A stretch of 64,000 nucleotides of DNA from Omnitrophica bacterium GWA2_41_15. Lineage in GTDB: Bacteria; Omnitrophota; Gorgyraeia; Gygaellales; Profunditerraquicolaceae. The notes beneath the pieces are model-generated. The model did no database searches. It saw only the letters and a list, made by a program, of their open reading frames with translations, and was not told where the DNA came from. Position numbers and translations under genes: made by a program. The DNA lies in NCBI GenBank assembly GCA_919901915.1, contig CAKKQB010000013.1, positions 64,192-128,191 on the forward strand, in the 5' to 3' direction. Within the stretch, counting starts at the first letter, position 1. Every line of letters starts with the position of its first letter. This document shows, piece after piece, positions 8,208 through 61,116 of the stretch.

Positions 8208-8255
8208 GATTTATCCGTGTTTATCCGTGTTCTTTTATCCGTGTCAATCCGTGTT
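8208..8255. repeat. B-type array: four TATCCGTGT motifs
   Basis: ggatttatccgtgtttatccgtgttcttttatccgtgtcaatccgtgtt lies directly 3' of the pilM-pilN stop. Same unit order as 14690-14736. Confidence 0.85.
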
Positions 8256-18922: not shown

Positions 18923-19029
18923 TAGCGTAGAGCGTAGAGCGGATAGTAAAATTAGCATTTAGCGTAGAGCGTAGAGCGTTTAATAAAAGTCTTTTGCCTT
19001 TTCTCTACGCTCTACGCTATACGCTATCC
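18923..19029. repeat. A-type heptamer-array hairpin (AGCGKAK)n ... (MTMCGCT)n
   Basis: tagcgtagagcgtagagcggatag...agcgtagagcgtagagcg-loop-ctctacgctctacgctatacgctatcc. The right arm contains the carA stop. Confidence 0.85.
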
Positions 19030-20102: not shown

Positions 20103-20107
20103 ATTTT

Positions 20108-20137
20108 TAGCGTATAGCGGATAGCGTAGAGCGTATA
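20108..20137. repeat. A-type heptamer array, single arm
   Basis: tagcgtatagcggatagcgtagagcgtata; no complementary arm seen nearby. Confidence 0.75.
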
Positions 20138-33322: not shown

Positions 33323-34750
33323 TTAGATAATCGGCAAATTATTTTCTTGCGTCAAATACTTATCCATAAAATCAGCGCAGCGCCTTCCTTCTGAAATGGC
33401 CCAAACAATTAAAGACTGACCGCGACGCATATCTCCACAAGAAAAAACGCCTCGCCGAGAAGTCAGAAAACTTTCTTTTAACAAGTTGTTTCTCTCTGGG
33501 GGCAAAAAACCCAAGGCTAAAATTACCAAATCCCCATCGAGTTCAAATTCGCTTCCGGAAATTTCTTCCATTACAGAATGGCCTGATTCATTCTTCTTGA
33601 ATTCAACCCGGCAGCAAGAAAGCTTTTTTACGTGTCCATTCTCACCAATAAACTTTTTTGTGGAAACCGACCAATCGCGAATTCCAGCTTCTTGGTGGCT
33701 GGTAGTAGCCTTAAGAAGCAGCGGATACTTTGGCCAGGGATAATCACGCGTGCGGGATTCAGCCGGCCGCGGCATAATTTCAATCTGGGTGACGCTCTTC
33801 GCGCCTTGCCTATGCGCGACGCCGATACAATCCGCGCCGGTATCCCCGCCGCCAATCACCACAACTTTTTTATCTTTAGCATCAATAAGTTCATCCGAAG
33901 AAAATTTTACGCCTTGCGCTCTTTTATTTGATTGAATCAAATAATCCATCGCGAAATATATGCCTTTTAATTCCCTTCCTTCTATCTTTTCAGCCGCAGG
34001 CTGATCCGCCTTCGGCGGAAGATCCCGAGGAATACGAGAACCGCAAGCTAAACAAATCGCGTCAAACTCTTTTCTTGAATAAGGCGCCTTTAAATCCATA
34101 CCCACATTTATGCCCGGCATAAATTTTATTCCTTCCTTTTTCAAAATTTCTAAGCGCCGATCCAAAATCCTTTTTTCTAATTTAAAATCCGGGATCCCAT
34201 AGCGAAGAATACCGCCAATTTTATCATCCCGCTCAAACACCACTACATTATGCCCCGCCTTGTTTAATTGATCCGCGCAAGATAAGCCCGCAGGGCCAGA
34301 ACCAATAATTGCCACTTTTTTTCCGGTGCGCCTCTTAGGCGGATTAGGCTTAATAAATCCATGTTTAAACGCGTACTCAATTATTGCCAACTCATTCTCT
34401 CTTGTAGTTACCGCCTCATCATTAATCTCTAAAACACAGGCATATTCGCAAAGAGCCGGACAAATTCTGCCGGTAATCTCCGGAAAATTATTAGTAGCCG
34501 AAAGCAGCAAATAAGCCTTTTCCCACTTGCCGCGAAATAACAAATCATTCCATTCCGGGATATAATTACTAATGGGACAGCCCCAAAGACAAAACGGCGT
34601 CCCACAATCCATGCAGCGCGAAGCCTGCTCCATAGAATGTTCGACTGCAGGTAATATGCCCACTTCGCGATAATCTTGGACGCGTTCACAAACAGGCCTG
34701 CATTTAGATACTTGCCTTTTAACTTTTAAGAAACCTTTAATATCACCCAT
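33323..34750 (-). CDS. gltD: glutamate synthase small subunit (NAD(P)H)
   Basis: 475 aa. Fe-S Cys motifs, GSGPAGL and GGGDTG dinucleotide folds. 8-nt overlap with gltB. Confidence 0.9.
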   Translation of the reverse strand: MGDIKGFLKVKRQVSKCRPVCERVQDYREVGILPAVEHSMEQASRCMDCGTPFCLWGCPISNYIPEWNDLLFRGKWEKAYLLLSATNNFPEITGRICPALCEYACVLEINDEAVTTRENELAIIEYAFKHGFIKPNPPKRRTGKKVAIIGSGPAGLSCADQLNKAGHNVVVFERDDKIGGILRYGIPDFKLEKRILDRRLEILKKEGIKFMPGINVGMDLKAPYSRKEFDAICLACGSRIPRDLPPKADQPAAEKIEGRELKGIYFAMDYLIQSNKRAQGVKFSSDELIDAKDKKVVVIGGGDTGADCIGVAHRQGAKSVTQIEIMPRPAESRTRDYPWPKYPLLLKATTSHQEAGIRDWSVSTKKFIGENGHVKKLSCCRVEFKKNESGHSVMEEISGSEFELDGDLVILALGFLPPERNNLLKESFLTSRRGVFSCGDMRRGQSLIVWAISEGRRCADFMDKYLTQENNLPII

Positions 34751-37700
34751 CTGATGCCTCCACCAACTCTATTTTCTCTTCTGTTTTTCTGCCTCCTAAT
34801 ACACGTTTATATTCAATGGGCATAACTTTTACAAATTTTTTTAATTCAGGAGTAAAATTATCTAAGATATTTTTCGCGCTGGAACTGCGCGTATAATGAT
34901 AGTGATTAGAAAGCAACTTCTCGATTGTTCGCGCGTCTTCTTCGGCCACGGCCTCAAGTATTACCATTTCCATATTGCACTTATTCTTAAAATCTCCGTC
35001 CTTATCCCAAACATAGGCGATACCGCCTGACATACCCGCGGCAAAATTTCTTCCGGTTCTGCCGATAACCACAACTCTGCCTCCGGTCATATATTCGCAA
35101 GCGTGATCTCCTACGCCCTCAACCACCGCGTAAAGGCCGGAATTCCTGATACAAAATCTCTCACCGGCAATCCCGCGGATATAGGCAGAGCCTAAAATTG
35201 CTCCGTAAAAAGTAGTATTGCCAATAATAATATTTTCTTCTACTTTGTAATTTGATTGCCTATCCGGATAGATGATAATTTTCCCTCCGGACATACCTTT
35301 ACCTACATAATCATTCGTCAGGCCTTCTAACTCAAGAGTAACTCCTTTGGCAAGCCAAGCGCCAAAACTTTGACCTGCCACACCCTTAAATTTAAAGTGT
35401 ATCGTATTCGCGGGTAAACCATCCTCCCCAAAAATACGACAAACTTCGCCGCTTAACATCGTGCCGACACTACGATTATGATTTCTAATGGATAGCTCTA
35501 TTTTAATTGGCTTCCTATTTTCCAAGGCGCCCCGAGCCAATTCGATAAGTTTTCTATCTAGAATATTGTCAATTCCGTAATCCTGTTTATAAGGAGCCAA
35601 ACCACTGCCCTCTGGCTTGCGGCTCGGGCTATGGGAAGCCCGACCATTGCCCTTTGGCTGATATAAAATCCGGGAAAAATCTATTTTCTTTGCTTTCCAG
35701 GGAAGAATCTTGCTATTTACTTCCAACAAATCAGCGCGGCCAATCAGATCATCTATTTTAACAATACCTAAACTACTCATAATCTGACGCAATTCCTGGG
35801 CAATGAAACGAAAATAATTTTCTACATATTCCGGCTTCCCGCTAAAGCGTTTCTCTAAAAGTTCATCCTGCGTAGCCACGCCAAGAGAACAGTTATTTAA
35901 GTGGCAATGTCTAAGCATAACACATCCCAAAACAACTAAGACTGAAGTACAAAATCCAAACTCCTCCGCGCCCAAAAGCGCGGCCACAGCCACATCCCTG
36001 CCGGTGCGCATTCCTCCGTCAACCTGAAGCCTCACCCTGCTTCTTAAATCATTTAAAACCAGGGTCTGATGTGTTTCGGCAATACCTAATTCCCAGGGAA
36101 GCCCGGCATGCTTAATGGAACTTAAGGGGGATGCCCCGGTGCCGCCATCTCCGCCGGAAATCAAAATCATATCCGCGTGCCCCTTAGCCACTCCCGTGGC
36201 AATAGTTCCTACTCCAATTTCAGAAACAAGTTTTACACTAACGCGCGCGCGCGGATTAACATTTTTTAAATCAAAAATTAGCTGGGCTAAATCTTCAATA
36301 GAATAAATATCATGATGCGGCGGCGGAGAAATCAAAGTTACGCCGGGAGTTGTATAACGAATCTTAGCGATAGCCGCGCTTACTTTGTGGCCGGGAAGCT
36401 GGCCGCCTTCCCCGGGCTTAGCGCCTTGCGCGATTTTAATCTGCAATTCATCAGCATTTACTAAGTAATTCGTAATAACGCCAAAACGCCCGGAAGCAAC
36501 CTGCTTTATAGCGCTGCGCTTAGAATCTCCGTTTGGGAACGCGACAAAACGCGCTGGATCCTCTCCTCCTTCGCCGGTATTAGACCTACCCCCCAATCTA
36601 TTCATCGCGATAGCTATTGTTTCATGGCAAGCCTTACTAATTGAGCCAAAACTCATCGCGCCGGTAACAAAACGCCGGACGATTTCGCTAACCGGCTCTA
36701 CTTCTTCAATGGGAATAGGCTTAACTTCTTTAAATTTAAAAAGGCTTCTTAAAGTAGCAGGATTACTTGATTGATCATTAATGAGTTTCGCAAACTCCTG
36801 GTATTTTTTAGAATCATTATTTCTTACCGCACCCTGCAAAGCGGCAATACTATCCGGATTCCAAAGATGAAATTCACCGTCTTTCTTCCACTGATACAGG
36901 CCGCCAGTTGCTAAAAATGGCCTTTGTAAACCATCGACCGCGAATGCCTCTTTGTGCCTTAGAAGCGCTTCCTTCTCAATAATTCCTAAATCAATACCTC
37001 CAATACGGGAAACTGTTCCGGTGAAATATTTATCAATTACCTCTGAACTTAGGCCCAATGCCTCGAATATCTGCGCGCCCCGATAACTTTGTAAAGTAGA
37101 AATTCCCATTCTTGAGAGTATCTTTAGAATGCCTTTATCCACTGCCTTAATATAATGCTTTATCGCGGACTCTAAATCTAAGTCAACTTCCTTATCTCTA
37201 ATTAAAAAGGCGGCCGCTTCATAGGCAAGATACGGATTAATACAATCCGCGCCATACCCAAACAAGAGCGCGAAATGATGCACCTCGCGCGGAGAAGCGC
37301 TTTGAACAATAATACTTACCTGGGTACGCAGCGCCTTTCTTACCAAATCCTGATGCACACAAGCCGTTGCCAATAACGCGCTAAGGCAGGCCTTATCTTT
37401 ATTTATACCCTGATCACTTAAAATAACAAAAGTAAAACCCTCTTTTATCGCGGCTTCTGTTTCTTTGCAAATCCTGTCTAATGCTTTTTTAAAATTGTTT
37501 TTTTCTGAAATATTAAACAGAAGAGAAATTGTTTTTGTTTTAAAACCGTTCTTTTTTATATCGTGAATCTTTTTCAGATCTTCATTTGTCAAAATAGGAT
37601 TTTTTACTAATAACTTATGGCAATGCCGCGGCTGCTCATCCAAAATATTTTTTTGCGGCCCTAAATACGTATCAAGGCTCATCACCAGCTCTTCCCTGAT

Positions 37701-39386
37701 TGGGTCAATTGCCGGATTAGTAACCTGCGCGAATAACTGTTTAAAATAACTATAAAGCAACTGCGGCTTATCAGATAAAACCGCATGCGGGGTATCATTA
37801 CCCATTGAGCCATTCGGTTCATGAGAATCTTCCACCATAGGTTTAATGATAAATTTAAAATCCTCGCGGGTGTAACCGAAAGCTTTGAATAGAGTTAACG
37901 GATCTACTTTATTAGCGGATAGCGGATAGCTTTTATTAGCGTAGAGCGTAGAGCGTAAAGCGTAGAGCGTTTTGCTTTTCCTATCCGCTATACGCTCTAC
38001 GCTATCCGCTGATAATTTATCCAACTCTAACATATTTTTTTTAAGCCATTCTCCATACGGCTTAGAGCTTGCCATTGTTTCTTTTATTTCCTTATCTTCA
38101 ATTATGCGGCCTTCTTCTGTATCAACAAAAAGCATCTTTCCCGGTTCAAGCCTTCCTGAGATAGAAATATCATCCGGCGCGATATCTAAAACCCCTGCCT
38201 CTGAAGCCATAACTACCAAATTCTTTTTGGTCACAATATAGCGGCTAGGCCTTAAACCATTTCTGTCTAAAACCGCGCCAATCCTTACGCCATCAGTAAA
38301 GGCAATGGCTGCCGGTCCATCCCAGGACTCAATAAGACAAGTGTGGTATTTATAAAAATCTCTTACATTTTGACTCAAAAGATTATTCTGCTCCCAAGCG
38401 CTGGGTATTAACATCATCATCGCGTGAGACAAAGATCTACCCGATAAAACTAAAAGTTCAAAAACATTATCAATAGCCGCGGAATCGCTTCCCCCGGGAA
38501 CAATCACCGGAAAAATTTCCTTTAAATCCTTACCAAATAATTTACTTTTTAGTAAACCTTGGCGGGCAGTCATCCAATTTATATTCCCTTTTAAGGTATT
38601 TATCTCTCCATTATGCGCCAAGAACCGAAAAGGCTGCGCCAGATCCCAAGTGGGAAAAGTATTGGTACTATAACGGGAATGCACTAAACAAATCGCGCTT
38701 TGAAGAGCGCTGTCTTTTAAATCCAAAAAGAATTTCTCCAACTGCTCAGGCATAAGCAGGCCTTTATAAGAAAGCGTGCGGCAAGAAAGATTAGTAATAT
38801 AAAAAAATGATTTTTGTTTTAAGAATAAAGAGCGGATTTCGTTTTCTATTTTCTTGCGGATAATATAAAGCCTGCGCTCAAAATCAAGGCCATCCTTACC
38901 TATACTTAGACCTTTACCTTTACCTATAAAAACCTGCTCAATCACCGGTTGAGTAAGCTTTGCGGTTTTGCCAATCGCGGAATTATCAACCGGGACAATC
39001 CGCCAACCAAGCAAGGCCTGGCCCTCTTCTTTAATAATTCTAGCAAAGATACCCTTACATAACGCGCGCTCTTTTTTGTTAGTGGGAAGAAATACCATGC
39101 CTATCCCATAATCGCCAGAGGACGGTAAAATAAAATTTTCCTTCGCGCAGGCTTTTGCCAAAAATTCATGTGGCGCCTGAATAAGTATGCCTGCGCCATC
39201 CCCGGTCTCTGGGTCGGCGCCAGTTGCCCCGCGATGAGAAAGACGGCCTAAAACCTCCATGCCCTGTTTAATAATTTCATAAGATTTTTTGCCTTTGACA
39301 TCGCAAACAAATCCTACGCCGCAGGAATCATGTTCAAAACGGGAATCATACAACCCGTATTTTTCTAATTTCTGACGATTATCCAT
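34743..39386 (-). CDS. gltB: glutamate synthase large subunit
   Basis: 1547 aa. Ntn Cys (DSCGVGF), central domain, FMN domain and GXGXG domain. Contains two repeat-derived inserts. Confidence 0.95.
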   Translation of the reverse strand: MDNRQKLEKYGLYDSRFEHDSCGVGFVCDVKGKKSYEIIKQGMEVLGRLSHRGATGADPETGDGAGILIQAPHEFLAKACAKENFILPSSGDYGIGMVFLPTNKKERALCKGIFARIIKEEGQALLGWRIVPVDNSAIGKTAKLTQPVIEQVFIGKGKGLSIGKDGLDFERRLYIIRKKIENEIRSLFLKQKSFFYITNLSCRTLSYKGLLMPEQLEKFFLDLKDSALQSAICLVHSRYSTNTFPTWDLAQPFRFLAHNGEINTLKGNINWMTARQGLLKSKLFGKDLKEIFPVIVPGGSDSAAIDNVFELLVLSGRSLSHAMMMLIPSAWEQNNLLSQNVRDFYKYHTCLIESWDGPAAIAFTDGVRIGAVLDRNGLRPSRYIVTKKNLVVMASEAGVLDIAPDDISISGRLEPGKMLFVDTEEGRIIEDKEIKETMASSKPYGEWLKKNMLELDKLSADSVERIADRKSKTLYALRSTLYANKSYPLSANKVDPLTLFKAFGYTREDFKFIIKPMVEDSHEPNGSMGNDTPHAVLSDKPQLLYSYFKQLFAQVTNPAIDPIREELVMSLDTYLGPQKNILDEQPRHCHKLLVKNPILTNEDLKKIHDIKKNGFKTKTISLLFNISEKNNFKKALDRICKETEAAIKEGFTFVILSDQGINKDKACLSALLATACVHQDLVRKALRTQVSIIVQSASPREVHHFALLFGYGADCINPYLAYEAAAFLIRDKEVDLDLESAIKHYIKAVDKGILKILSRMGISTLQSYRGAQIFEALGLSSEVIDKYFTGTVSRIGGIDLGIIEKEALLRHKEAFAVDGLQRPFLATGGLYQWKKDGEFHLWNPDSIAALQGAVRNNDSKKYQEFAKLINDQSSNPATLRSLFKFKEVKPIPIEEVEPVSEIVRRFVTGAMSFGSISKACHETIAIAMNRLGGRSNTGEGGEDPARFVAFPNGDSKRSAIKQVASGRFGVITNYLVNADELQIKIAQGAKPGEGGQLPGHKVSAAIAKIRYTTPGVTLISPPPHHDIYSIEDLAQLIFDLKNVNPRARVSVKLVSEIGVGTIATGVAKGHADMILISGGDGGTGASPLSSIKHAGLPWELGIAETHQTLVLNDLRSRVRLQVDGGMRTGRDVAVAALLGAEEFGFCTSVLVVLGCVMLRHCHLNNCSLGVATQDELLEKRFSGKPEYVENYFRFIAQELRQIMSSLGIVKIDDLIGRADLLEVNSKILPWKAKKIDFSRILYQPKGNGRASHSPSRKPEGSGLAPYKQDYGIDNILDRKLIELARGALENRKPIKIELSIRNHNRSVGTMLSGEVCRIFGEDGLPANTIHFKFKGVAGQSFGAWLAKGVTLELEGLTNDYVGKGMSGGKIIIYPDRQSNYKVEENIIIGNTTFYGAILGSAYIRGIAGERFCIRNSGLYAVVEGVGDHACEYMTGGRVVVIGRTGRNFAAGMSGGIAYVWDKDGDFKNKCNMEMVILEAVAEEDARTIEKLLSNHYHYTRSSSAKNILDNFTPELKKFVKVMPIEYKRVLGGRKTEEKIELVEASDG
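35597..35658. repeat. E-type palindromic element inside gltB (in frame, linker between FMN and C-terminal domains)
   Basis: ccaaaccactgccctctggcttgcggctcgggctatgggaagcccgaccattgccctttggc encodes QPKGNGRASHSPSRKPEGSGL. Confidence 0.7.
37911..38010. repeat. A-type heptamer-array hairpin inside gltB (in frame)
   Basis: attagcggatagcggatagc...tagcgtagagcgtagagcgtaaagcgtagagcg-loop-ctatccgctatacgctctacgctatccgct encodes SADSVERIADRKSKTLYALRSTLYANKSYPLSAN. Confidence 0.85.
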
Positions 39387-39389
39387 ATT

Positions 39390-39558
39390 TTTAGCGTATA
39401 GCGTATAGCGTAGAGCGTAGAGCGTATAGCGTATAGCGTAGAACGTAGAGCGTAGAGCGGATAGCGGATAGTAAAAATCTATGTTTTAACTATATGTTAT
39501 CCGCTATTCCTACACGCTTTCTTTCCTATCCGCTAAACGCTATACGCTCTACGCTAAT
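39390..39558. repeat. A-type heptamer-array hairpin, largest copy (left arm about 11 units)
   Basis: tagcgtatagcgtatagcgtagagcgtagagcgtatagcgtatagcgtagaacgtagagcgtagagcggatagcggatag, then a loop, then a degenerate complementary arm. Confidence 0.85.
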
Positions 39559-44659: not shown

Positions 44660-44732
44660 TTTAGCGGATAGCGTATAGCGTATATATAGGTTTTACTATC
44701 CGCTATACGCTCTACGCTATACGCTATACGCT
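44660..44732. repeat. A-type heptamer-array hairpin
   Basis: tttagcggatagcgtatagcgtata-loop-tatccgctatacgctctacgctatacgctatacgct. The right arm contains the nfnA stop. Confidence 0.85.
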
Positions 44733-45569
44733 TGATATTTTAAGATTACAGATATGCTTTTCTTTATCTAAATAAACACTGTTCCTCTTTGTCAATTCAT
44801 CCCAATTTACTTGAGTTCCGTCAAATTCCGGGCCATCAACGCAAGCAAATTTCGTCTTACCTGCCACAGTTACACGGCAACAGCCGCACATTCCAGTAGC
44901 ATCTACCATCAAAGGATTCAAAGAAACAATGGTTTTAACTTTAAAATCGCTAGCAACCTCGCAAACTCTTCTCATCATCGGTATCGGGCCGACTGCGTAA
45001 ATTAGCGAATAGCGGATAGCGGATAGTGAATAGCTTAATACCTCCTGCAAAATATCAGTAACAAAGCCTTTCCTGCCGCAAGAACCGTCATCAGTGGTTA
45101 TATAAAGCTCATCGCAAAACACCTTTAGCTCCTGCTCCAAAATCAATAAATCATTGTTTCTTGCGCCCAGTATAGTAGTAGTATGGTTTCCCGCTTCTTT
45201 CAAAGCCTTGGCAACCGGATAAATCTCCGCAATTCCTACGCCTCCGCCTACAAGAATTAAATTTCCAAAATTTTTAATCTCAGTAGCATGCCCCAGGGGC
45301 CCGGCCAAAGCGTATAATGAATCACCAACCTCCATCTTGCCCAGCAACTTAGTAGTTAAGCCAACCTCTTGAAAGATCAAGGTAATTGTGCCTATGTCAG
45401 AATTTTTATCTACTATAGTTAGAGGTATCCTTTCGCCTTCCTCGCATACCATAAGAACAACAAATTGGCCCGGTCTTACTTTCCTGGCAATAAGCGGGCT
45501 TAAGATTTCAAAGCGCTTAATTGTTACGTCTTGCGTTTGTGCTAAAATTTCTTTTTTGATTATCCGCAT
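44724..45569 (-). CDS. nfnA: NfnA/SudB-like FAD/NAD-binding ferredoxin-reductase-type subunit (PyrK family)
   Basis: 281 aa. Has RPGQFV, GGGVGIA and a C-terminal 2Fe-2S Cys cluster (GMCGCCRV...CVDGPEF). Confidence 0.75.
   Translation of the reverse strand: MRIIKKEILAQTQDVTIKRFEILSPLIARKVRPGQFVVLMVCEEGERIPLTIVDKNSDIGTITLIFQEVGLTTKLLGKMEVGDSLYALAGPLGHATEIKNFGNLILVGGGVGIAEIYPVAKALKEAGNHTTTILGARNNDLLILEQELKVFCDELYITTDDGSCGRKGFVTDILQEVLSYSLSAIRYSLIYAVGPIPMMRRVCEVASDFKVKTIVSLNPLMVDATGMCGCCRVTVAGKTKFACVDGPEFDGTQVNWDELTKRNSVYLDKEKHICNLKISSV
45001..45035. repeat. A-type heptamer array (single arm) inside nfnA, in frame
   Basis: agcgaatagcggatagcggatagtgaatagc encodes SYSLSAIRYSLIY. Confidence 0.7.
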
Positions 45570-47649: not shown

Positions 47650-47716
47650 AGCGTTTAGCGGATAGCGTTTAGCGTATAGTTTTTTTTATCCGCTATACGC
47701 TCTACGCTATACGCTA
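47650..47716. repeat. A-type heptamer-array hairpin
   Basis: cagcgtttagcggatagcgtttagcgtatag-ttttttt-tatccgctatacgctctacgctatacgcta. Confidence 0.85.
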
Positions 47717-48202
47717 TTAATACGATATAGCTATCCTCTTATTCTCTTCCCTGTGCTTCAAAATCACTCCATCTTCCTTATATTTTTTTAATAAAAAGTG
47801 CGTGACTATGCCGCGGATATTCTCGAGGCAAGAAAGTTTCTCCGCTACAAATTGTGAAACTTTTTGTAAATTCTTGCCCTCAACTATAACCAAAAGGTCA
47901 TACGTGCCGGAAATCAAGCAACAGTCAGTTACCTCCGGAAACGAATAAATACGCTCAGCAATTTTATCAAAACCAATATCCTTTTGCGGAGCAATATTAA
48001 CCTCTATCAAAGCCCTGACGGAAGGCTCTTCGGTTTTAATTAAATCCTTATTTATTACTGTTTTATATTTTAAAATTATCCCCTCTTTTTCATACTTTTT
48101 TATCGCCTCTTTTATTGCCTCCGGCTTTTTCTTTAACATTTTCGCGATCTCTTCCGGAGTTACAAGCGCGTTCTTTTCTAATATCTCTAATATTTCGTCC
48201 AT
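47717..48202 (-). CDS. Lrp/AsnC family transcriptional regulator
   Basis: 161 aa. An HTH, then a RAM/AsnC_trans_reg domain. Confidence 0.85.
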   Translation of the reverse strand: MDEILEILEKNALVTPEEIAKMLKKKPEAIKEAIKKYEKEGIILKYKTVINKDLIKTEEPSVRALIEVNIAPQKDIGFDKIAERIYSFPEVTDCCLISGTYDLLVIVEGKNLQKVSQFVAEKLSCLENIRGIVTHFLLKKYKEDGVILKHREENKRIAISY

Positions 48203-48225: not shown

Positions 48226-48287
48226 GGAGAGAACAGATTACAGAGTACGGATTACTGAAAGATTTTTCTGTGCTCTGTTCTCTGTGC
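48226..48287. repeat. C-type heptamer hairpin (CAGAGMA units), overlapping the nadE 3' end
   Basis: ggagagaacagattacagagtac...ctgtgctctgttctctgtgc. Related to 61007-61095. Confidence 0.7.
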
Positions 48288-49008
48288 TTTCTTTAATATA
48301 GCATATTTTCGGCCCTTCCCTCTTATGCTCTGATTTCTTTACCATATTTTTTACTTTATTTACTTTCTCTTTTGATAAGACCTGTTTCTTCTTGTTTTCC
48401 AAACGCTCCAATATGTCATCTAACTCGTTATAGGTAAGCCCCATTTCTCCTTCATCGGTCTGGCCTGGCCAGAGTCCGGCAGTAGGCGGCTTAGTAACAA
48501 TGGATTCGGGAATCTTTAATTCTTTAGCCAATGCCCTTACCTGTTTTTTTAATAAACCGCCGATTGGCAAAATATCCGTTGCCCCGTCGCCATACTTGGT
48601 AAAATAACCGACTTCAATTTCAGATCTATTTCCTGTGCCGCAGACAAGATAATTAAGTTTATTGGCAAAATAATATAAAACTAACATCCTTAAGCGCGGT
48701 TTTAAATTTGCCAAAGCTAACGGCCCCGCTTTGGGTAAAATTTTCATGACATTGTCGTAAATATCAGCCAAATCAATTAATTTTATTTTTATCCCAAATT
48801 TCCTTGCCACTAACTTTGCGTCATCTAAATCCTGTTTTTGACTATGACAGCCAAGAAACAAAACCAAAAGTTTTTGTTTACCCAGCGCTTCCCTGGCTAA
48901 AACAGCTACCACCGCGGAATCTATCCCCCCGCTTAAACCCATAACAATACCCTTTGCCTTAGCCGCTTTGACCTGCTGCCTAATCCAAGAAATAATTTTC
49001 TTTTTCAT
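48238..49008 (-). CDS. nadE: NH3-dependent NAD+ synthetase
   Basis: 256 aa with the SGGIDS PP-loop. The last about 16 aa (STENRAQKNLSVIRTL) are repeat-derived. Confidence 0.9.
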   Translation of the reverse strand: MKKKIISWIRQQVKAAKAKGIVMGLSGGIDSAVVAVLAREALGKQKLLVLFLGCHSQKQDLDDAKLVARKFGIKIKLIDLADIYDNVMKILPKAGPLALANLKPRLRMLVLYYFANKLNYLVCGTGNRSEIEVGYFTKYGDGATDILPIGGLLKKQVRALAKELKIPESIVTKPPTAGLWPGQTDEGEMGLTYNELDDILERLENKKKQVLSKEKVNKVKNMVKKSEHKREGPKICYIKESTENRAQKNLSVIRTL

Positions 49009-53642: not shown

Positions 53643-53700
53643 ATTAGCGCGGATAGCGTTTAATTTTTTCTATACGCTATACGCTCTACGCTATACGCTA
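53643..53700. repeat. A-type heptamer-array hairpin
   Basis: ttagcgcggatagcgttta-atttttt-ctatacgctatacgctctacgctatacgcta. Confidence 0.85.
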
Positions 53701-59775: not shown

Positions 59776-61116
59776 TTAATGAAATTTTTTCTTGGCTTTT
59801 TTTGAGATACACAAGGCGGGATTTTTCCAAAACTCTTTGAGCGTATAATAAGCTTTGCGGGGAGAGCGTTTATTCAACCTTTGTCCTGCCGGGTCTTTAC
59901 TGCCTAATAAGGCATCCTCAGGCTCTTGCGACAATGCCACAATACCAAACCACTCTTCATTCATATTTTTATTGCCTTCTACCTTTATATCAAAATAATA
60001 GTTTCCGTTAGACCAATTCGAACCAGTATCATGCTCGAGCCACGTATCAGAGGCATGCTCATCATACTTCCACCATTCATCTGACCACTCAAAAATAACG
60101 CCGCCTAAACAATTGCCCGCGCCTTTCTTATTACCCGCCAGATTCCCATAAATCTGACACCATTGAGATTCCAGGAAAAATGCCTGCATATCCTGATCTT
60201 CCTTTTTTAAATAGGCATCATAACAATCAGCACCAATTTCTACCAAAAGAATTGGCTTGTCAAAAGTTAATTTTAAAGATTTAAAAAGGTTTCCAAAGGT
60301 CTTACCTCTATAGATAATGCAAGCAATCAAATCTACGTCAGGACAATATTCCTTCGCGTATTCCAACCCTGTCAACTCGCCATTCCCCAATGCCACAGGA
60401 TGTTGAGGGTCGAGTTCATGGACAGCTTTCGTCAAATCATTTACATAAGAATAATAAATCCTGGAACGTATGGCTCCTTGTTTCTGGGGATCTGGTTCTT
60501 TTTCTGCTTCTTCGCAGGCCCAAGGATTAACACGGCCTAAACAAGAATAGTTATTTTCATTGCCCATAATCCACATAAGCAATCCGGGCTCGTCCTTATA
60601 TAAGCTGACCATATCCAGGACATCTTTCTTTATTCTTTCCTGAAAACCCTTATCTCCATAGAATGGGCCGGGATACTCCCAAAAAGATAACCAATGGCCT
60701 AAAATTGTGCGTATTCCGTAAAGCTGATAAAGCTCGCTAATTACTTTTTTTACCGCTTCTGGATTATCTCCCGGCTGATAAATTCTTATGGTATTAACCC
60801 CCATCTCATGCATCAGTTTTCCGTCTACAATCCAAGGTTTATTGGGGTCAGACCACCAGTCATATTCGTGATTCTTACCAATAGGAACAGGATTATAACA
60901 AACCCCTTTTACGATGTAAGGTTTTTTATCTACTATCAACTGGTAGTAATTATTTTTAAGTTTTTTAATATAAACTCCGGGCTTTGGCTTTGAGGCCATA
61001 CCCATTAAAAACAGAACACAGAGCACAGAAAACAGAGAACAGAATATTTTTCTCTGTGCTCTGCGCTCTGTTCTCTGTGCTCTATTTTCCGTTCTCTTAT
61101 TCATACTTAATTTCAT
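59776..61116 (-). CDS. clan GH-A (beta/alpha)8 glycoside hydrolase (GH2/GH72-like motifs), paralogue 1
   Basis: 446 aa. Has VKGVCYNP, GVNTIRIY, WIMGNENNY (acid/base) and LLVEIG (nucleophile region). The N-terminal 40 aa are encoded by repeat 61007-61095. Confidence 0.7.
   Translation of the reverse strand: MKLSMNKRTENRAQRTERRAQRKIFCSLFSVLCVLFLMGMASKPKPGVYIKKLKNNYYQLIVDKKPYIVKGVCYNPVPIGKNHEYDWWSDPNKPWIVDGKLMHEMGVNTIRIYQPGDNPEAVKKVISELYQLYGIRTILGHWLSFWEYPGPFYGDKGFQERIKKDVLDMVSLYKDEPGLLMWIMGNENNYSCLGRVNPWACEEAEKEPDPQKQGAIRSRIYYSYVNDLTKAVHELDPQHPVALGNGELTGLEYAKEYCPDVDLIACIIYRGKTFGNLFKSLKLTFDKPILLVEIGADCYDAYLKKEDQDMQAFFLESQWCQIYGNLAGNKKGAGNCLGGVIFEWSDEWWKYDEHASDTWLEHDTGSNWSNGNYYFDIKVEGNKNMNEEWFGIVALSQEPEDALLGSKDPAGQRLNKRSPRKAYYTLKEFWKNPALCISKKAKKKFH
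61007..61095. repeat. C-type heptamer-array hairpin (CAGAGMA)n / (TKCTCTG)n inside the 5' end of the hydrolase ORF
   Basis: acagaacacagagcacagaaaacagagaacagaa-tattttt-ctctgtgctctgcgctctgttctctgtgctc. Confidence 0.8.

What the first reader, a model, noticed from the sequence alone, without database searches (positions are those of the whole stretch)
37911..38010. A complete heptamer-array hairpin sits in frame inside glutamate synthase large subunit
About 100 nt of A-type repeat (both arms plus loop) lies within the gltB ORF without stops or frameshift. It encodes SADSVERIADRKSKTLYALRSTLYANKSYPLSAN. The insert falls between the amidotransferase domain and the conserved FGYT...SMGNDTP region, where I recall other GltB proteins having a short variable linker.

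A 7-nt unit is not a multiple of 3, so a stop-free, frame-preserving total length implies selection after insertion. The closest known analogy is the in-frame Rickettsia palindromic elements in protein-coding genes.
Basis: partly seen in the sequence, partly recalled or inferred. Interest (0 to 1): 0.68.

Follow-up and report, generated by a model that had tools for sequence, protein, structure and literature searches.

The report
In-frame heptamer hairpin repeat in GltB
A roughly 100-base hairpin-forming repeat built from 7-base units, one of a family scattered between genes in this Omnitrophota genome, sits in frame in a flexible linker of glutamate synthase; the same element occupies the same spot in five distant relatives, which makes it a counterpart of the Rickettsia palindromic elements.

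Summary
Window 37908-38010 (minus strand) is a heptamer-array hairpin: four AGCGNAN units, an A-rich loop, then NNNCGCT units. It lies in frame in gltB (34743-39386) and encodes S459-K493. About eight further arrays of this family lie in the window, nearly all intergenic.

The segment replaces a hypervariable interdomain linker. That linker has a median of 11 aa in 120 Omnitrophota orthologues and is 36 aa here. AlphaFold2 gives pLDDT <50 for residues 462-492.

The insertion is not private to this genome. Five orthologues that are only 70-72% identical carry the same element at the same nucleotide and in the same frame.

The element is 77-91% identical between carriers, against 67-70% for the gene. 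All three codon positions are equally conserved, so the constraint acts on nucleotides rather than on the protein. Synonymous sites next to the element are also unusually similar among carriers, and gltB is visibly mosaic. This points to one element-bearing allele spread by recombination.

A stop-free frame is not rare (8 of 66 strand/frame combinations in non-genic copies), so no reshaping after insertion is required.

Best reading: a dispersed REP/MITE-like heptamer hairpin tolerated and translated as a disordered loop. It is an analogue of Rickettsia palindromic elements, not a member. Interest is moderate.

The parts
34743..39386 (-). gltB, glutamate synthase large subunit, 1547 aa, intact ORF that hosts the element
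   Evidence: Pfam GATase_2, Glu_syn_central, Glu_synthase and GXGXG; PDB matches to GltB/Fd-GOGAT
37908..38010 (-). In-frame heptamer-array hairpin, encoding A460-K493 plus the last base of the S459 codon; it takes the place of the native ~11-aa linker
   Evidence: boundaries set by comparison with the empty-site orthologue P0047 and with the five other carriers
37983..38010 (-). 5' arm: AGCGGAT AGCGTAG AGCGTAT AGCGGAT. The units whose last three bases fall in frame are GAT, not TAG.
   Evidence: phase analysis and the text
37970..37982 (-). A-rich loop AGGAAAAGCAAAA
   Evidence: loops of six of the seven other paired copies aligned or displayed are A-rich on the gene's sense strand where that is known; 39392-39556 is mixed
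37938..37969 (-). Proximal 3' arm: CGCTCTA CGCTTTA CGCTCTA CGCTCTA CGCT
37908..37937 (-). AATAAA, then an 18-nt partial arm (AGCTATCCGCTATCCGCT), then AATAAA. This is a 24-nt repeat of the element's 3' end and accounts for most of the extra 36 nt compared with the other carriers.
   Evidence: (D2, 24-nt period), (gap of 98 nt against 62 nt)
39392..39556 (.). Long compound intergenic copy of the same family between the glnA(III) stop and the gltB start; it ends 6 nt before the gltB ATG
47650..47717 (.). Intergenic 4+loop+4 copy whose minus-strand sequence is almost identical to the in-frame gltB element of orthologue P0039
44662..44732 (.). Intergenic copy; its first unit supplies the stop codon of the NfnA-like gene
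18924..19025 (.). Intergenic compound copy between carA and carB; the carA stop lies inside it
20108..20137 (.). Single-arm copy 6 nt upstream of the carA start
53646..53700 (.). Intergenic copy between the ribonucleotide reductase and phosphoglycerate mutase genes
45003..45034 (-). Second in-frame case: a single CGCT-type arm (ATCCGCT ATCCGCT ATTCGCT) encoding SLSAIRYSL in a loop of the NfnA/PyrK-like gene (44724-45569)
   Evidence: (3-4 residues longer than PDB 5jca and 4ylf at that loop)

Best explanation
The segment is a copy of a dispersed, REP/MITE-like repeat family of Omnitrophota. The family has a stereotyped sequence: AGCGTAT AGCGTAG AGCGTAT AGCGGAT, an A-rich loop, then about four NNNCGCT units. 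This copy lies in, and has replaced, the hypervariable linker between the Ntn-amidotransferase domain and the central domain of GltB.

Shown:
- It is in frame.
- It is absent from 114 of 120 orthologues.
- It sits where solved GltB structures have a short linker.
- It is modelled as disordered.

Inferred:
- It is transcribed and translated as a roughly 35-aa surface loop that the enzyme tolerates.
- It survived because it was one of the minority of insertions that kept the frame open.
- It arose once (or very few times) and reached six divergent lineages as an element-bearing gltB segment, through descent plus homologous recombination.
- In this genome it later grew by a 24-nt repeat of its 3' end, for a net +36 nt.

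Its DNA stays close to the family consensus. Either the allele is younger than the gene-wide divergence, or it is homogenised against other copies or within the hairpin. The enzyme that mobilises the family is unknown.
For: The family is real and dispersed: 34 pattern matches against 0.02 expected, at about nine sites in 64 kb, almost all filling the gaps between co-directional genes.

Intergenic copies in this window and in another genome (L004) align base for base with the gltB copies of other lineages.

It is an insertion. The linker median is 11 aa against 36 aa here. The empty-site orthologue P0047 reads L-PVKKASKRKIS-VDPL. There are 21-26 extra residues relative to PDB GltB/Fd-GOGAT chains. 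pLDDT is <50 for residues 462-492, with confident flanks.

The six carriers share ancestry. All six share the same 5' junction (xC|AGCG), the same frame and four 5' units. Four have exactly the same length.

Recombination is visible. P0039 is closest to the non-carrier P0070 over codons >480 (0.84-0.93 identity). Across the linker it is closest to the carrier P0020 (0.85-0.91). The excess synonymous identity of the flanks among carriers is +0.15 at +-15 codons and decays to +0.05 at +-80 codons. It is about 0 for carrier/non-carrier pairs. Label permutation gives 13 of 924.

Translation-level filtering: the lengths are 72, 72, 72, 72, 78 and 108 nt, all multiples of 3, and no copy has a stop. 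The in-frame phase of units 1 and 4 is never TAG or TAA, although 37% of intergenic units are TAG.

The linker is a general sink for repeats. Unrelated hairpins or simple repeats sit in the same linker in P0070, P0002, P0107 and P0081.

There are other in-frame arrays of the same family: NfnA-like (this window), IspG, TpiA, Lnt and NadC in other genomes.
Against: The element is more conserved (0.77-0.91; third codon positions 0.875) than synonymous sites in its own flanks (0.58-0.70). A purely neutral passenger of the same age should not be.

Recombination between genes that are only about 68% identical at the nucleotide level is expected to be rare.

The 3' arm of this window's copy uses different units (CTA/TTA) from those of the other five carriers (AAA/ATC/ATA). 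Its common origin with them therefore rests on the 5' junction, the 5' arm and the flank signal only.

No transposase or RAYT gene was seen in the window and no target-site duplication was found.

There is no transcript or peptide evidence. DNA was available for only 12 of the 120 orthologues.
Confidence: 0.6

Rival explanations
1. The hairpin is a selected intragenic nucleic-acid signal. It would be kept because the RNA or DNA structure does something at the domain boundary. Examples are a binding site for whatever recognises the family elsewhere, an mRNA processing or stability element, or a translational pause that helps the 450-aa amidotransferase domain fold. The peptide would be incidental.
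For: Conservation is at the nucleotide level and independent of codon position. Positions 1, 2 and 3 are all about 0.85-0.9 identical, and third positions are 0.875-0.92, against 0.43-0.51 gene-wide.

The hairpin is retained in all six carriers, with z from -2.7 to -7.5.

Unrelated strong hairpins occupy the same linker in P0070 (15 bp perfect, z -5.9) and P0002 (-65.6 kcal/mol).

In six of seven paired copies the A-rich loop is on the sense strand of the neighbouring genes (the exception is 39392-39556), and the window's copies abut start codons.
Against: 114 of 120 orthologues lack the element, and most have an 8-16-aa linker. One of the two short non-carrier linkers folded at the DNA level shows no structure (P0038, z about -0.1 to -1).

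The nearest relatives of carriers are non-carriers.

The P0072 copy is decaying (z -2.7).

The high identity can also be explained by a young allele spread by recombination or by homogenisation against other copies.
Confidence: 0.2
2. Independent, recurrent insertions. The family is actively mobile and has a strong target preference, so the same site in gltB was hit separately in several lineages.
For: The distribution on the whole-gene tree is patchy, with non-carrier sister sequences.

Copies look fresh and close to the family consensus seen at unrelated intergenic loci in two genomes.

This window's copy has a different 3' arm and loop length from the others.

Other repeats have also landed in the same linker.
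Against: The 5' flanks of about eight other copies share no motif beyond A/T richness, and there is no target-site duplication.

An identical junction nucleotide, frame and four-unit arm in six carriers, and an identical length in four, would require near-perfect site specificity.

Independent insertion does not predict the excess flank synonymous similarity among carriers.

The native linker is replaced rather than interrupted.
Confidence: 0.15
3. Artefact, or local growth of a simple repeat. Either the segment is an assembly chimera, or it is a heptamer microsatellite that expanded in place by slippage rather than an inserted element.
For: Heptamer simple repeats are the commonest long simple-sequence-repeat class in bacteria and are slippage-prone (PMC4679880, PMC4692102). 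Repeats are classic places for assemblies to break.
Against: The identical protein is recorded on three contigs. The same architecture occurs in five assemblies from other samples.

The order of unit variants (TAT, TAG, TAT, GAT), the loop and the inverted arm match unlinked intergenic copies. Slippage from a local seed would not produce that match.
Confidence: 0.03

Closest known systems
Rickettsia palindromic elements (RPE; Ogata et al. 2000, as summarised in PMC10969869)
   Same: A dispersed palindromic repeat found both between genes and in frame inside unrelated housekeeping genes. It adds a peptide at a position compatible with the fold. Here that position is the GltB linker, and single arms occur in loops of NfnA-like, IspG, TpiA and Lnt.
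   Different: RPEs are about 100-150 bp, are not built from 7-nt units, belong to Rickettsia, and each family encodes a conserved peptide. Here the element is 65-105 nt of heptamers, the host is Omnitrophota, conservation is at the nucleotide level, and most copies are intergenic.
REP/BIME/REPIN elements mobilised by RAYT (TnpA-REP) transposases (PMC2817692, PMC8266576)
   Same: Short, abundant, imperfect palindromes that fill gaps between co-directional genes. A GTAG tetranucleotide is present in the AGCGTAG units. Copies occur as hairpin-forming inverted pairs.
   Different: REPs are single 20-40-nt palindromes, not arrays of 7-nt units, and are by definition extragenic. No RAYT gene was seen in the 64-kb window.
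Bacterial heptamer repeat arrays: cyanobacterial STRR, convergent GGGAATC arrays of Xanthomonas (PMC4692102), TAACTGA repeats of Beggiatoaceae and cyanobacteria (PMC4679880)
   Same: Tandem 7-nt units, mostly intergenic and close to ORF ends or start codons. In Xanthomonas they are often convergent pairs able to form stem-loops. The mechanism of origin is unknown.
   Different: The unit sequence is different. The Omnitrophota elements have a fixed order of unit variants and a fixed 4+loop+4 layout, like a transposable unit. In those reports intragenic copies are the minority, and an in-frame complete hairpin in a conserved enzyme was not among the passages I read.
Prokaryotic MITEs (for example Nezha, Correia, ERIC; review PMC10969869)
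   Same: Small non-autonomous repeats with inverted ends that sometimes create in-frame fusions with host ORFs.
   Different: No target-site duplication and no recognisable parent insertion sequence. The whole element is the inverted repeat.

Membership tests
Rickettsia palindromic elements | Dispersed palindromic repeat present in many copies in one genome | tested here: met
   About nine sites in 64 kb; 34 pattern matches against 0.02 expected
Rickettsia palindromic elements | Copies inserted in frame in protein-coding genes at fold-compatible (surface or loop) positions | tested here: met
   GltB linker; NfnA-like loop; IspG and TpiA loops in other genomes
Rickettsia palindromic elements | Sequence homology to an RPE family, and a Rickettsia host | not tested
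   No RPE sequences were available to align. The host is Omnitrophota and the element is made of 7-nt units, which RPEs are not (my own knowledge). It is therefore treated as an analogue only.
REP/REPIN (RAYT-associated) | Short imperfect palindrome with a conserved GT[AG]G head | tested here: inconclusive
   GTAG recurs inside the AGCGTAG units, but as part of a tandem array rather than as a single head.
REP/REPIN (RAYT-associated) | Extragenic location | tested here: not met
   The copy in question, and the one at 45003-45034, are intragenic and in frame. Other copies are intergenic.
REP/REPIN (RAYT-associated) | A cognate RAYT (Y1 HUH transposase) gene in the genome | tested here: inconclusive
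   None among 40 ORFs of the window scanned against Pfam. The rest of the genome was not available.
Heptamer tandem-repeat arrays (STRR / GGGAATC / TAACTGA type) | Head-to-tail 7-nt units | tested here: met
   Tandem Repeats Finder gives period 7 at all sites
Heptamer tandem-repeat arrays (STRR / GGGAATC / TAACTGA type) | Predominantly intergenic, close to ORF starts or stops, sometimes as convergent pairs | tested here: met
   Copies lie 6-27 nt upstream of start codons, and two ORF stops lie inside arrays. Convergent arms are present at most sites.
Heptamer tandem-repeat arrays (STRR / GGGAATC / TAACTGA type) | Same unit sequence as a described family | tested here: not met
   The unit is AGCG(T/G)A(T/G). 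The described units are CCCCAGT, TTGGTCA and CAACAGT (from my own recall of the cyanobacterial STRR literature, not checked here), plus GGGAATC and TAACTGA (PMC4692102, PMC4679880).
MITE | Target-site duplication flanking terminal inverted repeats | tested here: not met
   Inspection of the flanks of six window copies and of L004, L027 and L108 shows no consistent direct repeat.
Known RNA families (Rfam 15) | Match to a curated covariance model | tested here: not met
   Only two sub-threshold miRNA-precursor hits that reflect a generic hairpin (22 bits against gathering scores of 56-80).

The most novel reading that the evidence does not exclude
The heptamer hairpin is not a mere passenger. 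It would be a selected, nucleotide-level signal embedded in the coding sequence at the GltB domain boundary. It would be recognised as RNA or DNA by the same unknown factor that maintains the family's fixed sequence across Omnitrophota. It would have spread between lineages by recombination because it is advantageous, for example by pausing translation or by setting mRNA processing or stability between the parts that encode the two domains.
Probability: 0.15. Interest if true: 0.75.

Novelty: new variant of a known kind. Interest (0 to 1): 0.5.

Why it matters
It extends the 'selfish DNA inside protein genes' phenomenon, so far best documented for Rickettsia palindromic elements, to an uncultured phylum and to a different kind of repeat: arrays of 7-base units whose origin is a long-standing puzzle.

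The six GltB carriers give a natural series in which one element sits at one site in genes that have diverged by about 30%. This makes several questions directly testable:
- Are such elements neutral passengers or functional RNA/DNA signals?
- Are they homogenised against other copies?
- Do they move between lineages by recombination?

It is also a practical warning. Peptides such as SVERIADRK and (A/S)IRYPLSA in Omnitrophota proteins are repeat-encoded, not domain features.

Tried and rejected
- Word-indexed protein search with a 60-aa carrier-type linker query: no candidates. One capped search was lost.
- phmmer of the 36-aa element peptide against 1.84 billion representative proteins: no hit at E <= 0.001. 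The query is too short, so this says nothing about how common in-frame copies are.
- Metagenome scan for the junction pattern AGCGKAKAGCGKATA N{56,86} GCNTTYGGNTAYWC: it returned only the contig already held, so the carrier sample could not be enlarged.
- Rfam: nothing meaningful.
- Pfam scan of 40 window ORFs for a transposase or RAYT: none.
- Target-site duplications and a shared target motif at the element flanks: none seen.
- Intrinsic terminator: rejected by inspection, because no T-run follows the hairpin on the sense strand.
- Intein, intron or bypass-type removal: considered and rejected. All six copies keep an open frame and lengths divisible by three, which would not be needed if the segment were removed.
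- The idea that short 'native' linkers are decayed hairpins: not supported. P0038 shows no structure and no AGCG remnants.
- I did not run covariation statistics on the stem. Six related sequences with register-shifting repeats give no power.
Full report
**1. The observation**

The ORF at 34743..39386 on the minus strand encodes a 1547-aa glutamate synthase large subunit. It has the four expected Pfam domains and strong matches to solved GltB and Fd-GOGAT chains.

Read on the coding strand, positions 38010-37908 have this layout:
- four AGCGNAN units (AGCGGAT AGCGTAG AGCGTAT AGCGGAT);
- a 13-nt A-rich loop;
- five CGCT cores spaced by CTA or TTA;
- AATAAA;
- an 18-nt partial arm;
- AATAAA again.

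As RNA the region folds at -49 kcal/mol, with z = -5.5 and 0 of 200 shuffles as good. As DNA, z is also -5.5. The motif AGCGNANAGCGNANAGCG occurs 34 times in the window against 0.02 expected.

The same protein is recorded on three contigs, although whether these are separate assemblies was not established.

**2. The family it belongs to**

Arrays of the same units lie at 18924-19025, 20108-20137, 39392-39556, 44662-44732, 45003-45034, 47650-47717 and 53646-53700. All but 45003-45034 fill the short gaps between co-directional genes:
- They end 6-27 nt upstream of a start codon. CGCTAAAAATATG occurs at both 39386 and 20102.
- They sometimes contribute the stop codon of the upstream gene (at 19017 and 44724).

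They are not random heptamer runs. Three intergenic copies of this window, and one in another genome (L004, between gltB and gltD), align base for base. They share the same order of unit variants (TAT, TAG, TAT, GAT) and the same A-rich loop, followed by TATACGCT.... In six of the seven other paired copies aligned or displayed, the loop is A-rich on the sense strand of the neighbouring genes where that is known; 39392-39556 is mixed.

So this is a stereotyped dispersed repeat of about 65-70 nt, with a 4+loop+4 layout.
- No target-site duplication or shared flank motif was seen.
- No transposase or RAYT gene was found among the 40 window ORFs scanned.
- Rfam has no match.

**3. It is an insertion into a permissive linker**

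The best 120 homologues are all Omnitrophota-type GltB proteins, 69-73% identical to this one apart from the identical record.
- In their alignment, the stretch between ...ELDxL and D.LT.LKAFGYTRED has a median of 11 aa (interquartile range 11-14). Here it is 36 aa, the third longest.
- The orthologue with the most similar flanks, P0047, reads L-PVKKASKRKIS-VDPLVLFKAFGYTREDF. This fixes the 3' boundary of the element before V494.
- Against solved structures the query has 21-26 extra residues exactly here, between the amidotransferase and central domains.
- An AlphaFold2 model of residues 1-800 (61-sequence alignment, pTM 0.79) gives pLDDT <50 for residues 462-492, with confident flanks.
- The native linker is replaced rather than interrupted.

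**4. It is not private to this genome**

Five orthologues (P0020, P0039, P0040, P0072, P0078) have PAxSVERxADRKxYTLNAKRYPL at this position. Their DNA was fetched from five other assemblies. It shows the same element:
- starting at the same nucleotide (xC|AGCG after the Leu codon);
- in the same frame;
- with four AGCG units, a 9-10-nt A-rich loop and about four CGCT units.

Four of the five have exactly the same length. P0072 is 6 nt longer and decayed. This window's copy is 36 nt longer. All six still fold, with z from -2.7 to -7.5.

**5. How the six copies are related**

Whole-gene nucleotide identity between carriers of different clades is 0.67-0.70. Third-position identity at identical residues is 0.43-0.51. 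The element itself is 0.77-0.91 identical.

Within the element, codon positions 1, 2 and 3 are equally conserved (third positions 0.875, and 0.92 over the first 11 codons). The constraint therefore acts on the nucleotides, not on the peptide.

On the whole-gene tree the carriers are scattered, and their nearest relatives are non-carriers: P0039 with P0070 (0.82), and P0072 with P0038 (0.81).

The gene is mosaic. P0039 matches P0070 at 0.84-0.93 after codon ~480, but only 0.62-0.80 before it. Across the linker it matches the carrier P0020 at 0.85-0.91.

I compared 12 genes for which DNA was available. Synonymous identity next to the element exceeds the rest of the gene by these amounts:

| Flank width | Carrier-carrier pairs |
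|---|---|
| +-15 codons | +0.15 |
| +-25 codons | +0.13 |
| +-40 codons | +0.10 |
| +-80 codons | +0.05 |

Carrier/non-carrier pairs show about 0 excess. Only 13 of 924 relabellings reach the observed value (4 of 462 without P0020).

The simplest account is one element-bearing gltB segment that is younger than the gene-wide divergence and has been passed between lineages by homologous recombination.

The element is still more conserved than its own flanks. That may reflect short recombination tracts, homogenisation against other copies or within the hairpin, or selection on the structure. I cannot separate these.

**6. The 'selection after insertion' argument**

The NNNCGCT strand has no stop in any frame. 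The AGCGNAN strand carries a TAG every 7 nt, at one of two offsets.
- In the gltB phase, units 1 and 4 must not end in TAG or TAA, and unit 2 must not end in T.
- With the unit frequencies of the intergenic arrays (TAT 15, TAG 13, GAT 4, TTT 3), the chance of meeting these conditions is about 0.15.
- Empirically, 8 of 66 strand/frame combinations of non-genic hairpins are stop-free.
- With the one-in-three length requirement, a few per cent of random insertions would be viable. Simple survival of the compatible ones is enough.

Translation is nevertheless supported. All six copies keep open frames and lengths divisible by three, and none of the 12 phase-sensitive units is TAG or TAA.

This window's copy shows one later change. 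It is a 24-nt repeat of the element's 3' end (partial arm plus AATAAA), which is again a multiple of three.

**7. The linker is a sink for repeats, and other genes carry arrays**

Other orthologues hold unrelated structures or simple repeats in the same linker:
- a perfect 15-bp hairpin in P0070;
- a large GTCATTGCGAG...CTCGCAATGAC palindrome in P0002;
- GACGAAG heptamers in P0107;
- GCGAA pentamers in P0081.

Single arms of the AGCGNAN family also lie in frame in loops of other enzymes:
- the NfnA-like gene of this window (45003-45034, +3-4 aa against PDB 5jca and 4ylf);
- IspG (+6 aa) in an Omnitrophota MAG;
- TpiA (+3 aa) in a MAG labelled Rickettsiales;
- Lnt and a cyclase in Omnitrophota MAGs, and NadC in a MAG labelled Planctomycetales.

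This is the pattern expected if the repeats land widely and persist only at tolerant sites.

**8. Comparison with what is known**

In-frame palindromic repeats are best known from Rickettsia (PMC10969869). The present case works like an RPE but is not one: the unit structure, size and host all differ. It shares with REP elements the intergenic habit and a GTAG motif, but it is an array, and no RAYT gene was seen.

Heptamer arrays are known in several groups. Examples are the convergent pairs of Xanthomonas and the TAACTGA repeats next to start codons in Beggiatoaceae (PMC4692102, PMC4679880). Their origin is unexplained, and a complete in-frame hairpin in a conserved enzyme was not among the passages I read.

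A scan of species-representative genomes found AGCGKAK arrays in many phyla, with Omnitrophota contributing 11 of the 117 stretches returned. I had no control heptamer, so I draw no conclusion from the breadth.

**9. Verdict**

This is a real, in-frame copy of a dispersed heptamer-hairpin repeat in a tolerant GltB linker. It is most likely translated as a disordered loop, and it is shared as an allele by six divergent Omnitrophota lineages.

I rate it a new variant of a known kind, of moderate interest. The unresolved point that could raise the interest is why the element's DNA is better conserved than the enzyme gene around it.

Noticed in passing
window 45003-45034 (ORF 44724-45569, minus strand): A single CGCT-type arm (ATCCGCT ATCCGCT ATTCGCT) lies in frame in an NfnA/PyrK-like gene and encodes SLSAIRYSL. 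That loop is 3-4 residues longer than in PDB 5jca and 4ylf. The gene's stop codon is supplied by the next intergenic array.
   Followed up: yes
window 14714-15598: A perfect (100%) tandem duplication with a period of 464 bp covers two pilin-like (N_methyl) ORFs. It is bordered by arrays of the decamer TTTATCCGTG, which also occur at 8210-8255, 14013-14046 and 15178-15198, within a type IV pilus gene cluster.
   Followed up: partly
window 61008-61097 and 48228-48288: A second hairpin family is built from other heptamers (AACAGAG/CACAGAG facing CTCTGTG). It also sits in gene junctions. One copy contains a CGCT unit of the first family.
   Followed up: no
window 39387-39392 and 20103-20108: Two arrays end in the identical string CGCTAAAAATATG. 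The hairpin stops 6 nt before the start codons of gltB and carA and leaves no room for a Shine-Dalgarno sequence. Elsewhere the gap is 7-27 nt.
   Followed up: partly
L002, L003 and L126 (gltB of P0039, P0020, P0070): gltB is a recombination mosaic. Which pair is most similar switches along the gene, for example at about codon 480 and within the first 60 codons.
   Followed up: partly
L126 (P0070 linker) and L127 (P0002 linker): Unrelated in-frame palindromes occupy the same GltB linker. One is TTCGTTTGCCTTTGC-CGAAA-GCAAAGGCAAACGAA (15 bp perfect). The other is a ~150-nt element with GTCATTGCGAG...CTCGCAATGAC ends, encoding ...CEADEVNRSNL...RGRNDE.
   Followed up: partly
L063 878-1112 (MAG labelled Planctomycetales): The two arms of a family element (AGCGTAT AGCGTAG AGCGTAT AGCGGAT, and TATACGCT AAACGCT ATCCGCT ATCCGCT) lie 185 nt apart. 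Each is in frame in a different loop of a NadC-like gene, and together they bracket native coding sequence.
   Followed up: no
L047 337-361, L104 1476-1500, L085 7457-7481, L074 7533-7557: In-frame single arms that encode (N/S)AIRYPLSA or SLSALRSPL are present in IspG, TpiA, Lnt and a cyclase-like protein from other MAGs. The IspG and TpiA cases were checked against PDB alignments (+6 aa and +3 aa).
   Followed up: partly
L005-L121 (genome-contig scan): AGCGGAT/ATCCGCT arrays occur in many phyla with GC content from 36% to 73%, often as convergent pairs. Some enclose a second pair of different heptamers (L044: GTGAGTC.../...ACTCACA). Others alternate with CCTGAAC-type arrays (L079). No control heptamer was scanned.
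   Followed up: no
window 1-64000: Essentially every real gene is on the minus strand, and GC skew is strongly negative throughout (-0.09 to -0.27). The polarity of the elements relative to transcription therefore cannot be separated from their polarity relative to replication in this window.
   Followed up: no
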